Source: Squalus acanthias (taxonomy: Eukaryota). Taken from it: 64,000 nucleotides of DNA. The notes beneath the pieces were generated by a model. That model did not search any database. It saw only the letters and a program-made list of their open reading frames with translations, and was not told the DNA's origin. The position numbers and the translations under genes are program-made. The stretch covers positions 3,224,001 to 3,288,000 of the forward strand of contig CM059432.1 of assembly GCA_030390025.1 (NCBI GenBank). The letters are read 5' to 3'. Below, piece by piece: positions 40,561-46,057 of this stretch; position 1 is the stretch's first letter, and every line of letters begins with the position of its first letter.

Positions 40561-40742
40561 TGTGAGAAGTCGCACAACACCAGGTTATAGTCCAACAGCT
40601 TTATTTGAAATCACAAGCTTTCGGAGCGCTGCTCCTTCGTCAGGTGAAGCTTGTGATTTCAAATAAAGCTGTTGGACTATAACCTGGTGTTGTGCGACTT
40701 CTCACATTTGTCCACCCCAGTCCAACACCGGCATCTCCACAT
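40561..40742. mobile_element. Penelope-type inverted terminal-repeat insertion (family B) with 13-bp TSD
   Basis: Perfect 60-bp inverted arms at 40561-40620 / 40647-40706; TSD cacacttcaaaaa at 40548-40560 / 40743-40755; inserted in a SINE tail. Confidence 0.8.
40611..40647 (-). ncRNA. Minimal type I hammerhead ribozyme motif (family B), sense to cdh2 intron 15
   Basis: Reverse complement reads TCAC-CTGACGA-A-GGAGC-agc-GCTCC-GAAA-GCTT-GTGA. Confidence 0.78.
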
Positions 40743-42702
40743 CACACTTCAAAAAGGTACTTCATTGGCTGTAAAGCGCTTTGGGATCGTCCTAAGGTCG
40801 TGAAAGGCGCTATAGAAATGCACGTCTGTCTCTCTTTTCATATTGACGGCCCCTAGTTTTGGACTCCTCTCAAGTGCAAGTATCTTCCTTATGTCTACCC
40901 TAAAGACGCAGCGAGTTCCACATTCTCAGCACGCTCTGGGTAAAGAAGTTCCTCCCGAATTTCCTCTTGGATTTACTAGCTTGTATCGATGGCCCCTAGT
41001 TTTGCTCTCCCCCCACAAGATAACTCCACAATGCTGCTTCATCTGCATTAGTTAGTTACACTGCCTATGCTTTCTGTTACTTCAGGTTTAAGCCCGACAG
41101 CGGCCTGAACAATATATATATATTATTTACATTTCAAACTGAAAGGGTGCGCTCTCTTTATCGCTGCAGTTGGGGGCAACAACAACTTGTATTTATATAG
41201 CGTCTTTAAGACAGTAAAACGTCCCAGGGCGCTTCACAGGAGCGATCATCAAATAAAATCTGACACCCAGCCATATAAGGAGATATTAGGACAGGTGACC
41301 AAAAGCTGGGTCGAAGAGGTTGGTTTTAAGGAGCGTCTTAAAGCAGGGGAGAGAGGCGGAGAGGTTTAGGGAGGGAATTCCAGAGCTTGGGGGCCCAGGC
41401 AGCTGAAGGCACGGCCGAATATATACGGAAGGGAGAGACAATGCACCCTGGACTGAATATCTGGTAAACCGCTCATCTTTGGTGACAACAGATCTGCTGT
41501 AATAACAGTCTCACCCACTGAATCCCATTCAGCTCACCTAAAAAAATAGTTTAATTGCATCAACATCACAAGTACAATTTAATTCACGGCTTCACAGTGC
41601 AATTTCAGGTGCACAAATTAACTGTATTACAGAGTTCACCCACCTGAAGCATAAAAAGATAGTTTTTAACGTACAGTATAAAGCCGGCCTTGCATTTCTC
41701 CAGCGCCTTTCACGACCTCAGGATGTCCCAAAGCACTTCACAGCCAATGAAGTACCTTTTTGAAGTGTGGTCACTGTTGTAATGTAGGAAACACGGCAGC
41801 CAATTTGCGCACAGCAAGCTCCCACAAACAATGTGATAATGATCAGTTCATCTGTTTTAGTGATGTTGGTTGAGGGATAAATATTGGCCCCAGGACACCG
41901 GGGGAACTCCCCTGCACTTCTATGAAATAGTGGCCATGGGATCTTTTACGTCCACCCGAGAGAGTCTCAGTTTGACTCATCTGAAAGACGGCACCTCCGA
42001 CAGTGCAGCACTGGAGTGTCAGCCTAGATTTTTGTGCTCAAGTCTACTGTACCAGCACATTCGGCCCATCGTGCCTGTGCCGGCTCTTTGAAAGAGCTCT
42101 CCAGTTAGTCCCACACCCCCTGCTCTCTCCCCAGAGCCCTGCACCTTTTCCGCTTCAAGTATTTAACCAATTCCATTTTGAAAAAGTTACTATTGAATCT
42201 GCTTCCACTGCCCTTTCAGGCAGCGCGTTCCAGATCACAACAACTCGCTGCAAAATAAAATTCTCATCTCATCCCTCTGGTTCTTCTGCCAAATATCTTA
42301 AATCTGTGTCCTCTGGTTACCAACCCTCCTGACAGTGGAAACAATTTCTCCCTATCTACTCCATCAAAACTCCTCATAATTTTGAACACCTCTATTAAAT
42401 CTCCTCTTAACCTTCTCTGCTCTAAGGAGAACAATCCCAGCTTCTCCAGTCTCTCCACACAACTGAATTCCCTCATTTCTGGTAACATAGTCAGAGTTAT
42501 ACAGCACAGAAAGAGGCCCTTCGGCCCATCGTGTCTGCGCCGGCCATCAAGCCCTGTCTATTCTAATCTCATTTAAGTCTCCTCTGCCCCCTCTCCAAGG
42601 GCCTGGACCTCCTCCCTCTGATGTCGTGTCTAGAATTGGACACAATACTCTTTTTGCGTTGTTCAAATTTTGCCTCGCTGTGAATGTAGGAGAACATTTT
42701 AC

Positions 42703-42867
42703 CTCATTGATGAAGTCTCCAATGTCACCAGGGTGAGGGGCAGCTGAGCGGACTGGATACTGAGGTTCGGCATGGATTGGCCGTTCGTCCACTCTTCTGA
42801 TTCCCATCGGCTTTATCGAGTCGGGTTCCACAGCATCTGGCTGCTGAAGCTGGCTGAGGTCATAATC
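42703..42867 (-). CDS. cdh2: N-cadherin coding exon (exon 15 equivalent, cytoplasmic), 165 bp
   Basis: [55 protein letters not shown]; acceptor ccacag, donor gtaaaa. Confidence 0.97.
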
Positions 42868-43010
42868 CTGTGGGGCGCAAAGACACAACGGTGCGTTATC
42901 GAGCCTTTCTTTTGAACGCAGAAAGCGCTGAAAAACGTCAATCATTCTTGTAGTAACTGCGCCCCCACCCACCACCACCCCGCCTCTCTCCGAAACTCAA
43001 CGTATCTCAC

Positions 43011-43150
43011 CTGATCCTCTTCACCGCCTCCTTCCTCATCATATTTCAGTATGTTATCCCGGACGTCATCCTCAGGGTCAATCAGCAGCTGCTTGGCCTG
43101 ACGCTCCTTGTCTCGTCGCTTCATCCACACCACAAACAGCAAGACTAGGA
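43011..43150 (-). CDS. cdh2: N-cadherin coding exon (exon 14 equivalent, TM end plus p120-binding juxtamembrane core), 140 bp
   Basis: (I)[46 protein letters not shown]; acceptor ttctag, donor gtgaga. Confidence 0.96.
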
Positions 43151-43153
43151 CTA

Positions 43154-43210
43154 GAAAGAAAGAACGAACTTGCATTTATATAGCGCCTTTCACAACCTCA
43201 AGCCAATGAC
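43154..43210 (-). mobile_element. SINE/L2-type 3' tail abutting the exon 14 acceptor
   Basis: Minus strand reads cattggct-tgaggttgtgaaaggcgctatataaatgcaagttcgttctttctttc|tag; matches the tails at 40320-40390 and 52027-52100. Confidence 0.85.
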
Positions 43211-43689
43211 AACTGCCAATGAGCTGGTAGGCGCAAGAGACATCAAGAGGGACGTACAAGAAAAGAAAAGAAAAGAACGGCTTGCTTTTCTACAGCGTCT
43301 TCCACAACCTTGTGAGTCGCCTCAACTACTCCTTGTTGCAGCGAGTTCCACATTCTAATCACTCTCTAGGTCAAGAAGTTTCTCCTCAACTTCCTATTGG
43401 ATTGAATGGCAGAACAGGCTCGAGGGGCTGAATGGCCTTCTCCCGTTTCCACATTACTAAATCATGAACTGGCTCAGCGACCCCCTTCCCACCCACACAA
43501 CTAAACTAGAGCCCTGCATATTGAAGAACAGTGGGTGATTCAAGCCTCATTTAACTGCTTGTGGTGTGGTTTAATGTACGACATCACTCAAAGATCGCAA
43601 AGGTTTTTTAAAAAAAAAAATTAGGAAATAGATAAAGAAAGCCAAACTCGGTGTACACAACTAAAAAACAAAAGTTTTAACCCTGCAAA

Positions 43690-44445: not shown

Positions 44446-44475
44446 TTGTAAAAAAAAACGTTCCTGGGTACTTAC

Positions 44476-44709
44476 TCAGCAAGATGATGATGCAGAGCAG
44501 GATTGCGATGATCGCCCCAGTTCCCAAGCCGGCAGCAACGATAGCTTCAACAGAGGTGCAGTCGCCGTTTTCATCACAAGGGCAGACTTTGACCAGAAGG
44601 ACAGACGTGGCAGACTTGGGAGGGTTTCCAGAGTCCATAATCATGATCGGAACTTCGTAGATGCCATCATCGAGGATTCCAATCCTCAAACTCAACTGTG
44701 CATAATCGC
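44476..44709 (-). CDS. cdh2: N-cadherin coding exon (exon 13 equivalent, EC5 plus start of TM helix), 234 bp
   Basis: [77 protein letters not shown]; acceptor ttcag, donor gtaagt. Confidence 0.96.
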
Positions 44710-44915
44710 CTGAATAAAAGAAGCGAGCTGTGAGAAACCCCCAAAACATCCACAGAACAAACACTCCGGTGGTTTGTCACCAAACTATGTGTTGTAAGGT
44801 ACACCTGGCACTTGTCAAAAAAAGACAAGATGTGGAGATGCCGGTGTTGGACTGGGGTGGACAAATGTGAGAAGTCGCACAACACCAGGTTATAGTCCAA
44901 CAGCTTTATTTGAAA

Positions 44916-44952
44916 TCACAAGCTTTCGGAGCGCTGCTCCTTCCTCAGGTGA
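44916..44952 (-). ncRNA. Minimal hammerhead ribozyme motif (family B), sense to cdh2 intron 12
   Basis: Reverse complement reads TCAC-CTGAGGA-A-GGAGC-agc-GCTCC-GAAA-GCTT-GTGA. Confidence 0.75.
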
Positions 44953-45067
44953 AGTGAAGAGATGCATATAGGCACAGCATATATAAAGGGCAGTTAGAAA
45001 GATTAACTGTAATCATCTGGCAGTGTTCTCTGACTATATATGCTGTGCCTATATACATCTCTTCACT

Positions 45068-45104
45068 TCACCTGACGAAGGAGCAGCGCTCCGAAAGCTT
45101 GTGA
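45068..45104 (+). ncRNA. Minimal hammerhead ribozyme motif (family B), antisense to cdh2
   Basis: TCAC-CTGACGA-A-GGAGC-agc-GCTCC-GAAA-GCTT-GTGA. Confidence 0.78.
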
Positions 45105-46057
45105 TTTCAAATAAAGCTGTTGGACTATAACCTGGTGTTGTGCGACTTCTCAAAAAAAGACAAGGTATTATTAATTGTAAAATTATCCCAATTGTTACAC
45201 AGCGCCTTTATCGTAGTAAAACGTCCCGAGACGCTTCACAGGAGCGATTCCCAAACAAAATGTGACACTGAGCCACAGAAGGAGATATTAGGGACAGGTG
45301 ACCAAAAGCCTGGTCCAAGAGGCCGGTTTTAAGGAGCGTCTTCAAGGAGGAGAGAGGGGCGGAGAGGTTTAGGGAGTGAATTCCAGAGCTCGGGACCCAG
45401 GCATCTGAAGGCACGGCCGCCAATGGTGGAGCGATGAAAATCGGGGATGCGCAAGAGGCCAGAATTGGGATGAGCGCAGAGATCTCGGGGGGTCGTAGGG
45501 CTGGAGGGGGGTTACAGAGATAGGGGGGGCGGGGGGAAGGCCATAGTAGGTTTTGAAAACAAGGATTAGAATTTTAAAATCGAGGACCAGAAGCCAATGT
45601 AGGTCAGTGAGCACAGGGGGTGATGGGTGAATGGGCAGCAGAGTTTTGGATGACCTCAAGGTTACAGAGGGTGGAAGATGGGAGGCCGGCAGGGAGAGCA
45701 TTGGAGTAAAGTCTGGAGGCAAGAAAGGCATGGAGGAGGGTTCCACGAGCAAACAGCCAGCCTGGGATGATTTTAGCGACCTATCCACTTAAACCCCCTC
45801 AAAGATCTCTCTCCTACAGTACTGGCAAACAACCTGCTCCTTTGGCACCTGCAGCTGCTGAGAGGAGCCCGGCAGTCACCAGGGGAATTATCCTCACATT
45901 TTCCATTCTTGTCTCCAAGCACCAGCCTCTTCTGTCGCCTCCACAATACAGTGGCTGAGAACAGAAAACTCGATGCGTGCTGTGGGCAGGAACCACATCT
46001 TCTGCTGAACGCCACGAGGAGGTCATCACTGCAACCCCTTTTAGTACATCGGCTGCG

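What the first reader, a model, noticed from the sequence alone, without database searches (positions are those of the whole stretch)
40561..45164. Intact minimal hammerhead ribozymes (family B) in the sense strand of the N-cadherin pre-mRNA
Seen: three copies of TCAC-CTGAnGA-A-GGAGC-agc-GCTCC-GAAA-GCTT-GTGA, at 40611-40647 (-), 44916-44952 (-) and 45068-45104 (+). Each has the CUGAnGA/GAAA core, a 5-bp helix II, a 4-bp helix I and a palindromic AGCU in place of helix III. Established: Penelope-like element terminal repeats carry minimal type I hammerheads of this kind, thought to cleave as dimers through the palindrome. Inference: the two minus-strand copies lie in introns 12 and 15 of the same cdh2 transcript, about 4.3 kb apart and bracketing exons 13-15 (TM helix and p120 site). 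They have identical palindromes, so they could pair in cis as a double hammerhead and cut the pre-mRNA. Caveat: each copy is also part of a long inverted repeat that may sequester it.
Basis: partly seen in the sequence, partly recalled or inferred. Interest (0 to 1): 0.8.

Follow-up and report, generated by a model that had tools for sequence, protein, structure and literature searches.

The report
Hairpin-masked Penelope hammerheads in shark cdh2
Two short back-to-back insertions of a very abundant Penelope-like jumping gene left three small hammerhead-ribozyme motifs in introns of a shark N-cadherin gene, where each is predicted to be masked by its own hairpin and likely does nothing to the gene; this is an ordinary example of a known RNA class.

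Summary
The three 37-nt motifs are real, at the stated places, and fit the minimal hammerhead (min-HHR) of Penelope-like elements. The gene is shark cadherin-2 on the minus strand; the two sense copies lie in introns 12 and 15. They are not locus-specific: the exact 33-mer occurs 16,653 times in the genome and belongs to the terminal repeat of a Neptune-type RT/GIY-YIG retroelement. The three motifs sit in two head-to-head insertions with 12-bp target duplications and one tail each, the family's usual form (72 of 100 copies have the cut site covered by an upstream antisense arm). In the pre-mRNA the antisense arm is made first; forcing the proposed double hammerhead costs about 82 kcal/mol in the folding model. 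A contig from a probable RNA run shows exons 12-15 spliced. About 160 such same-strand pairs are expected by chance. Cis cleavage of cdh2 pre-mRNA is unlikely but untested. The scan has noted such shark Penelope hammerheads before, including elsewhere in this genome.

The parts
40549..40560 (.). Left target-site duplication of insertion 1 (12 bp)
   Evidence: Repeats at 40744-40755
40561..40743 (.). Insertion 1: head-to-head pair of truncated pLTR fragments of the family-B Penelope-like element, intron 15 of cdh2; forms a 58-bp perfect hairpin; 3-nt overlap of the two arms at 40647-40649
   Evidence: Arms match the 3' pLTR of full element L048 at 100% and 98%; fold; it interrupts another repeat whose right flank has 15 other matches in the window
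40611..40647 (-). min-HHR copy 1 (sense to cdh2); 5' core and helix II lie in the hairpin loop, A14-palindrome-cut site-helix I 3' strand are paired with the upstream arm
40705..40743 (+). 39-nt Penelope 'tail' of insertion 1 (on one end only)
40744..40755 (.). Right target-site duplication of insertion 1
42702..42866 (-). cdh2 exon 15 (counting the last exon as 16)
43010..43150 (-). cdh2 exon 14 (end of TM helix, juxtamembrane DEEGGGEED; p120-binding role recalled)
44476..44708 (-). cdh2 exon 13 (end of EC5, start of TM helix); its acceptor lies about 120 nt downstream of insertion 2
44817..44828 (.). Left target-site duplication of insertion 2 (12 bp)
   Evidence: Repeats at 45152-45163
44829..45151 (.). 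Insertion 2: head-to-head pair of truncated pLTR fragments, intron 12 of cdh2; arms 44868-44985 and 45035-45152 pair at 116 of 118 positions; 3-nt overlap of the two arms at 44983-44985
   Evidence: Arms match the 3' pLTR of L048 at 97-98%; fold
44829..44867 (-). 39-nt Penelope 'tail' of insertion 2 (on one end only)
44916..44952 (-). min-HHR copy 2 (sense to cdh2), fully paired with copy 3 except at N7
45068..45104 (+). min-HHR copy 3 (antisense to cdh2); its complement is the upstream arm that masks copy 2
45152..45163 (.). Right target-site duplication of insertion 2
47309..47544 (-). cdh2 exon 12

Best explanation
The three motifs are passengers in two 5'-truncated, head-to-head insertions of a Neptune-type Penelope-like retrotransposon in cdh2 introns 12 and 15, and in the cdh2 pre-mRNA each sense copy is predicted to be locked into a long hairpin by its own antisense arm, so it likely does not cut. 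Shown: the motif lies in the element's terminal repeat about 90 nt upstream of the ATG of an 891-aa RT/GIY-YIG frame; the two insertions have 12-bp target duplications, one long (tailed) and one short end, and 3-nt overlaps where the arms meet. Inferred: both nicked target strands primed reverse transcription, one at each of the element's two start sites, and the two short cDNAs were joined at a microhomology, which always puts the antisense arm 5' of the ribozyme whichever strand is read. Inferred from the literature: the ribozyme works only in tandem-element RNA, as a weak and probably protein-assisted dimer through AGCU. In cdh2 the introns are spliced out with the hairpins, which are likely double-stranded RNA substrates (editing, decay) rather than catalysts.
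For: Copy number 8,434 + 8,219 exact 33-mers, control 0; 59,723 arms with the downstream anchor. Full element L048: inverted arm-pLTR-HHR-ORF-pLTR-HHR-tail with target duplication; RVT_1 E=1e-8; YIDD, DKG, CX4CX2C and YIG motifs; C-terminal part scores 0.96-0.97 with GIY-YIG clusters, family on 18-31% of members. Of the first 100 exact copies, 79 have an upstream antisense arm and 72 have palindrome and cut site covered; median cost to free the fold 59.0 kcal/mol (57 covered copies) against 2.9 (19 without arm). 58 of 59 inverted rows have exactly one tail; 52 of 59 have a target duplication of 8 bp or more, 39 of 59 of 12-13 bp. In context P(helix I) is 0 for both copies, also in co-transcriptional prefixes. 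Inverted pLTR, one-sided tail and short TSD are described as typical (PMC3846280, PMC8557442, passages); two RT start sites and cleavage/extension of both strands were shown for an anole PLE (PMC11167929, results read). Upstream complementary sequences block ribozyme assembly in vivo (PMC2817708, abstract). Spliced exon 12-13-14-15 contig at depth 53 in X6.
Against: No cleavage assay. The nearest-neighbour model omits core tertiary energy and protein help; even the arm-free control is penalised by 16.2 kcal/mol, so only differences are meaningful. Copy 1 keeps its 5' core and helix II free (helix II P>0.98) and is held by only 10 bp of the ribozyme; adjacent helices can exchange fast in vivo (PMC2817708, abstract). 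Spliced mRNA does not exclude intron cleavage, X6 is only guessed to be RNA, and it is not shown that its donor carries both insertions (an X1 contig runs only 25 letters into insertion 2, below the tool's 31-letter rule). The sample of 100 copies is the first 16.7 Mb of one contig and was selected for an exact motif.
Confidence: 0.88

Rival explanations
1. The two sense copies pair through AGCU across exons 13-15 as a double hammerhead and cut the cdh2 pre-mRNA, tuning N-cadherin output.
For: Core letters, helices and palindromes are intact and compatible; both copies are on the sense strand 4.3 kb apart; an intronic ribozyme can modulate its host mRNA (PMC10919898, abstract).
Against: Forced double hammerhead costs 81.7 kcal/mol with arms, 16.2 without; copy 2 is fully paired before it is finished; naked 37-mers prefer another dimer (-28.9 against -19.1 kcal/mol); such pairs are expected about 160 times by chance, and 3 of 98 same-strand gaps in the sample are under 5 kb; min-HHR dimers cleave weakly in vitro (PMC4209133); spliced exons 12-15 seen.
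Confidence: 0.03
2. Copy 1 alone is a partial escapee: its 10 masked bases open by branch migration and it cleaves at a low rate in trans with an unmasked family copy or element RNA, perhaps helped by the element's protein; the effect on cdh2 is small.
For: Only 10 of 37 nt are covered and the cost is 15.5 kcal/mol; 21 of 100 exact copies have no arm and could be partners; the anole PLE ribozyme cleaves when the element's protein is added (PMC11167929).
Against: The masked bases are exactly the palindrome, cut site and helix I strand, at the loop end of a 58-bp perfect stem; the shared helix is 4 bp (AGCU duplex -2.5 kcal/mol); no reads ending at the cut site were found for the anole element (PMC11167929).
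Confidence: 0.05
3. The insertions matter to cdh2 as double-stranded RNA, not as ribozymes: the 118-bp hairpin 120 nt upstream of the exon-13 acceptor, or cross-pairing of the two insertions around exons 13-15, alters splicing, editing or circular-RNA formation.
For: Arms of the two insertions are 99-100% alike and occur in both orientations; the hairpin is close to the acceptor.
Against: Local hairpins should outcompete pairing over 4 kb (inference); the one contig seen is normally spliced; the gene is full of other inverted repeat pairs (858 pairs in the window).
Confidence: 0.04

Closest known systems
Minimal hammerheads (min-HHR) of metazoan Penelope-like elements (Cervera and de la Pena 2014, PMC4209133; results and discussion read)
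   Same: Type I topology, 4-bp helix I, bulged base between positions 9 and 10.1, G10.1-C11.1 pair, palindromic 15.2-16.2 without helix III, place in the pLTR, thousands of solo copies, opposite-strand pairs 100-700 bp apart.
   Different: Host is a cartilaginous fish, not named in the parts read; helix II is 5 bp (7-8 bp in the Schistosoma families); copy number (16,653 exact) exceeds the 4,000-9,000 given for coelacanth and Xenopus.
EN+ Penelope-like elements of the Neptune clade (Craig et al. 2021, PMC8557442; Arkhipova et al. 2013, PMC3846280; passages read)
   Same: Single RT + C-terminal GIY-YIG frame with CX2-5CxxC linker and DKG motif, pLTRs, inverted 5'-truncated copy, 30-40 bp tail at one end only, short target duplication.
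   Different: Clade placed by motif only (Nematis shares the linker); no tree built. The window holds only pLTR fragments, no coding part.
Poseidon element of the green anole, PAc (Frangieh et al. 2024, PMC11167929; main text read)
   Same: Two 3' ends a tail's length apart just inside or before the ORF start; hammerhead near the ORF start; insertions extend past the cut site, so uncut RNA is the template.
   Different: Different clade; there the ORF starts inside the ribozyme, here about 90 nt downstream of the cut site.
Domesticated intronic ribozymes: amniote RECK/CTCL/DTNB hammerheads (PMC6155905, passages) and the CPEB3 ribozyme (PMC10919898, abstract)
   Same: Self-cleaving motif on the sense strand of a host intron.
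   Different: Those are single-locus, conserved across species and fold as monomers; these are 2 of tens of thousands of near-identical repeat copies, lack helix III and are hairpin-masked.

Membership tests
min-HHR of metazoan PLEs | CUGANGA and GAAA boxes, U16.1-H17 | tested here: met
min-HHR of metazoan PLEs | Bulged nucleotide between 9 and 10.1; G10.1-C11.1 pair; short helix I (4-5 bp) | tested here: met
   Bulged A, G-C closing pair, 4-bp helix I
min-HHR of metazoan PLEs | Palindromic 15.1-16.1 stretch instead of helix III | tested here: met
   AGCU in family B, ACGU in a second family with a different helix II and I; 128 of 129 descriptor hits in 347 kb are palindromic, but most were fetched by the family-B motif; family A has 7,377 exact copies
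min-HHR of metazoan PLEs | Located in the pLTR of a PLE | tested here: met
   Both pLTRs of L048, 97-99% identical to the window pieces
min-HHR of metazoan PLEs | Self-cleavage as a dimer | not testable with these tools
   No assay; the genomic test for RT run-off at the cut site was inconclusive
EN+ Penelope-like element (Neptune) | One ORF with RT domain | tested here: met
   891 aa from ATG in L048, YIDD and DKG; PF00078 above cut-off in L047
EN+ Penelope-like element (Neptune) | C-terminal GIY-YIG endonuclease | tested here: met
   VVYLIRC...YIG...R...H motif; Atlas clusters with PF01541 on 18-31% of members at 0.95-0.97; Pfam itself gave no hit
EN+ Penelope-like element (Neptune) | CX2-5CxxC linker between RT and EN (Neptune and Nematis) | tested here: met
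   CHGNLCKTC at residue 753
EN+ Penelope-like element (Neptune) | pLTRs, inverted 5' copy, one-sided 30-40 bp tail, target duplication | tested here: met
EN+ Penelope-like element (Neptune) | Phylogenetic placement in Neptune rather than Nematis | not tested
   No reference PLE proteins at hand; no tree built
Domesticated intronic hammerhead (RECK type) | Single or few loci, not part of a young repeat | tested here: not met
   16,653 exact copies; arms 97-100% identical to a full element
Domesticated intronic hammerhead (RECK type) | Able to fold as an active monomer | tested here: not met
   No helix III; P(helix I)=0 in context
Domesticated intronic hammerhead (RECK type) | Conserved at the orthologous intron across distant species | tested here: inconclusive
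   Contigs of 4 runs break at the repeats; only X1 reaches 25 letters into insertion 2
Non-LTR retrozyme | Head-to-tail tandem units each with a hammerhead | tested here: not met
   Both loci are head-to-head single insertions with target duplications

The most novel reading that the evidence does not exclude
The head-to-head form is a built-in silencer that lets tens of thousands of ribozyme-bearing insertions persist in long shark introns; unmasked sense-strand copies do cut pre-mRNA (as protein-assisted dimers) and are purged, and the partly masked copy at 40611-40647 still nicks a fraction of cdh2 transcripts.
Probability: 0.07. Interest if true: 0.55.

Novelty: new member of a known kind. 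Interest (0 to 1): 0.12.

Why it matters
As found, little: it is one more family of a class described in 2014, in a host gene it probably does not affect. Two side points have some value. The family shows a very strict rule (one tailed and one short end per inverted insertion, 58 of 59 rows, with 12-13 bp target duplications) that fits twin priming from the two RT start sites shown in vitro for an anole element. And with about 60,000 arms the genome allows a direct population test of whether PLE hammerheads cut in vivo, an open question: unmasked copies should be depleted from the sense strand of introns if they do. If the cis double hammerhead were real it would be the first case known to me of two transposon ribozymes cooperating across exons to cut a host pre-mRNA (no such paper turned up, which were not aimed at proving absence).

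Tried and rejected
Rfam scan: no hammerhead model matched; the miRNA-like hits are the hairpins, all below gathering score. Two same-strand copies 2,965 bp apart on C1 were checked as a possible full element and proved to be separate insertions. A guessed tail-plus-ORF-start pattern found 2 places and was not followed. Test for in vivo cleavage from 5' ends of copies: 4,226 arms differ from U at position 17 against 846 one base downstream and 365 one base upstream, of about 65,000, but 85 of the first 100 are C, and 26 of 30 loci read are a subfamily with C17 (still a valid NUH site); only 4 of 30 are truncated at the site. Among 41 partner arms 3 begin exactly at the cut site, where a 4-nt helix-I microhomology could do the same: inconclusive. 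Pfam found no GIY-YIG hit; NCBIfam gave only bacterial RT hits below cut-off. No run was on record as RNA ('no RNA holder listed'); all 4 runs laid were contigs, which cannot show ends, and repeats swamped the joint tables, so presence or absence of the insertions in other animals could not be read. Lunse et al. 2017 is not held; it is known here only through a review passage (PMC6765202). Supplements of PMC4209133 (alignments of min-HHR families) were not opened and may list shark or chimaera copies. In one search the 'armtail' column is uninformative by design and was replaced; 2 of the 72 'covered' copies are covered by a separate insertion 1.2 kb away; energies were computed for the 83 of 100 copies with an intact helix I strand and only 300 nt upstream, so distant arms score low. 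In one search one insertion (L064) is counted twice, and the one row without a detected tail (L014) has a tail with a deletion by eye. Strand bias of copies in introns was not tested for want of a gene annotation. The look-up of earlier notes near this place found none.
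Full report
Observation. The three 37-mers are present as described at 40611-40647 (-), 44916-44952 (-) and 45068-45104 (+). A paired min-HHR descriptor finds them, plus two copies of a second family, and nothing in 20 shuffles of the window. The anatomy matches the minimal hammerhead of Penelope-like elements in Cervera and de la Pena 2014 (PMC4209133, results and discussion read): 4-bp helix I, a bulged base after position 9, G10.1-C11.1, and a palindrome at 15.1-16.1 in place of helix III. 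Rfam returns no hammerhead hit.

Host gene. An exon query returns cadherin-2 proteins of sharks and rays first; shark cadherin-2 maps to eight exons on the minus strand of the window at 73-100%, and this locus is its best exon-wise match in the genome, ahead of a paralogue on C11. One 2,893-nt contig of run X6 (RNA by guess) joins 47309-47544, 44476-44708, 43010-43150 and 42702-42866 without gaps. Counting the last exon as 16 (recalled layout), copy 2 lies in intron 12, about 120 nt before the exon-13 acceptor, and copy 1 in intron 15.

What the motifs belong to. The exact 33-mer occurs 8,434 + 8,219 times in the 3.71-Gb genome, the reversed control 0 times; a downstream anchor counts 59,723 arms. 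Long copies continue upstream into a reading frame. L048 is a full element: inverted arm, pLTR with hammerhead, an 891-aa frame starting about 90 nt after the cut site, a second pLTR with hammerhead, a tail, and a target duplication. The frame has RVT_1 (E=1e-8), YIDD, DKG, a CX4CX2C linker and a YIG motif; its C-terminal 164 aa resemble GIY-YIG clusters, though Pfam itself misses them. By the linker it is Neptune- or Nematis-type (PMC8557442, passages). The window pieces match the pLTR of L048 at 97-100%, so the insertions are young on the family's scale.

Anatomy of the two insertions. Insertion 1 (40561-40743) lies between 12-bp duplications at 40549-40560 and 40744-40755 and interrupts another repeat. 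Insertion 2 (44829-45151) lies between 12-bp duplications at 44817-44828 and 45152-45163. Each is two truncated pLTR pieces head to head, overlapping by 3 nt at the junction, one piece ending short and the other carrying the 39-nt tail. Copies 2 and 3 are the two arms of insertion 2. This is the family's normal form: of the first 100 exact copies on C1, 79 have an upstream antisense arm, 72 have the palindrome and cut site covered (2 of them by a neighbouring insertion), 64 have 30 or more of 37 nt covered. Of 59 inverted rows (58 insertions), 58 have exactly one tail and 52 a target duplication of 8 bp or more, mostly 12-13. Inverted pLTRs, one-sided tails and short duplications are described as typical of PLEs (PMC3846280 and PMC8557442, passages). 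An anole PLE protein nicks and extends both target strands and starts RT at two sites a tail's length apart (PMC11167929, main text). I infer twin priming: one strand primed at each start site and the cDNAs joined at a microhomology.

Could the pair cut the pre-mRNA? Because the arms diverge, the antisense arm precedes the ribozyme on either strand. Copy 2 pairs with 116 of 118 bp, all but N7 of the ribozyme included; copy 1 sits at the loop of a 58-bp perfect stem that takes A14, the palindrome, the cut site and the 3' strand of helix I. Helix I has probability 0 in both contexts and in transcript prefixes ending 0-20 nt after the motif; freeing the fold costs 15.5 and 64.8 kcal/mol. The forced double hammerhead costs 81.7 kcal/mol, against 16.2 when the arms are left out; the model lacks tertiary and protein terms, so the difference is what counts. 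Upstream complementary sequence blocks ribozyme assembly in vivo, though adjacent helices can exchange fast (PMC2817708, abstract). Published min-HHR monomers did not cleave and dimers cleaved weakly; the anole ribozyme cleaved only with the element's protein, was not needed for insertion, and no RNA-seq reads ended at its site. The arrangement is not special: about 160 same-strand pairs within 4,305 bp are expected by chance, and 3 of 98 same-strand gaps in the sample are under 5 kb. The spliced contig shows that mature cdh2 mRNA is made in a close relative or conspecific, but not that introns are uncut, and that donor is not shown to carry both insertions.

Is the ribozyme real for the element? 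Probably. A second family in the window keeps the same layout with different helices and the palindrome ACGU instead of AGCU (7,377 exact copies), and a subfamily of family B has C instead of U at position 17, still a cleavable site. A search for a pile-up of 5' ends at the cut site, which would mark RT run-off on cut RNA, was inconclusive.

Verdict. Observation confirmed; identity as Penelope min-HHRs supported; cis cleavage of cdh2 pre-mRNA not supported (3%), low-level escape of copy 1 possible (5%). New member of a known kind; earlier notes of this scan reached the same class for other shark introns, one in this genome (read after my own reading was fixed, and not independent evidence). 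Interest 0.12.

Noticed in passing
window 4985-5021 (+), 16155-16191 (-), 44307-44343 (+), 58540-58576 (-): A second Penelope-type min-HHR family (family A) with palindrome ACGU; the first two pass the descriptor, the other two have changes in GAAA or helix II. 7,377 exact copies genome-wide. The 58.5 kb copy is sense to cdh2 and also lies in a long hairpin.
   Followed up: partly
window 43744-44420 (+): 3' fragment of the family-A element with decayed endonuclease-like frames (…GETKRRLGDRFAEH…) and its pLTR, in cdh2 intron 13 on the antisense strand.
   Followed up: partly
L001-L035, L053-L102 (G000:C1:0.84-16.7 Mb): Strict one-tail rule in inverted insertions (58 of 59 rows) with 12-13 bp target duplications, fitting twin priming from two RT start sites.
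   Followed up: yes
L048 (G000:C28:18881500-18888500): Full-length family-B element with an 891-aa open frame; its upstream hammerhead has a change in the GAAA box.
   Followed up: partly
L103-L132: A subfamily of about 3,500 arms has C at position 17 (CUC cut triplet) instead of U.
   Followed up: partly
L120 and L121 (G000:C1:7.561-7.563 Mb): Two separate insertions 1.2 kb apart have the same inversion junction exactly at the predicted cut site; either run-off on cut RNA or a helix-I microhomology.
   Followed up: partly
window 46082-46618, 47018-47115, 36043-36131: Other long local hairpins formed by inverted copies of unrelated repeats in cdh2 introns; likely double-stranded RNA in the pre-mRNA.
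   Followed up: no
window 42736-44519 (exons 13 and 15): Runs X1 and X6 share six listed exon differences from the window, so their donors differ from the assembled individual or species.
   Followed up: no
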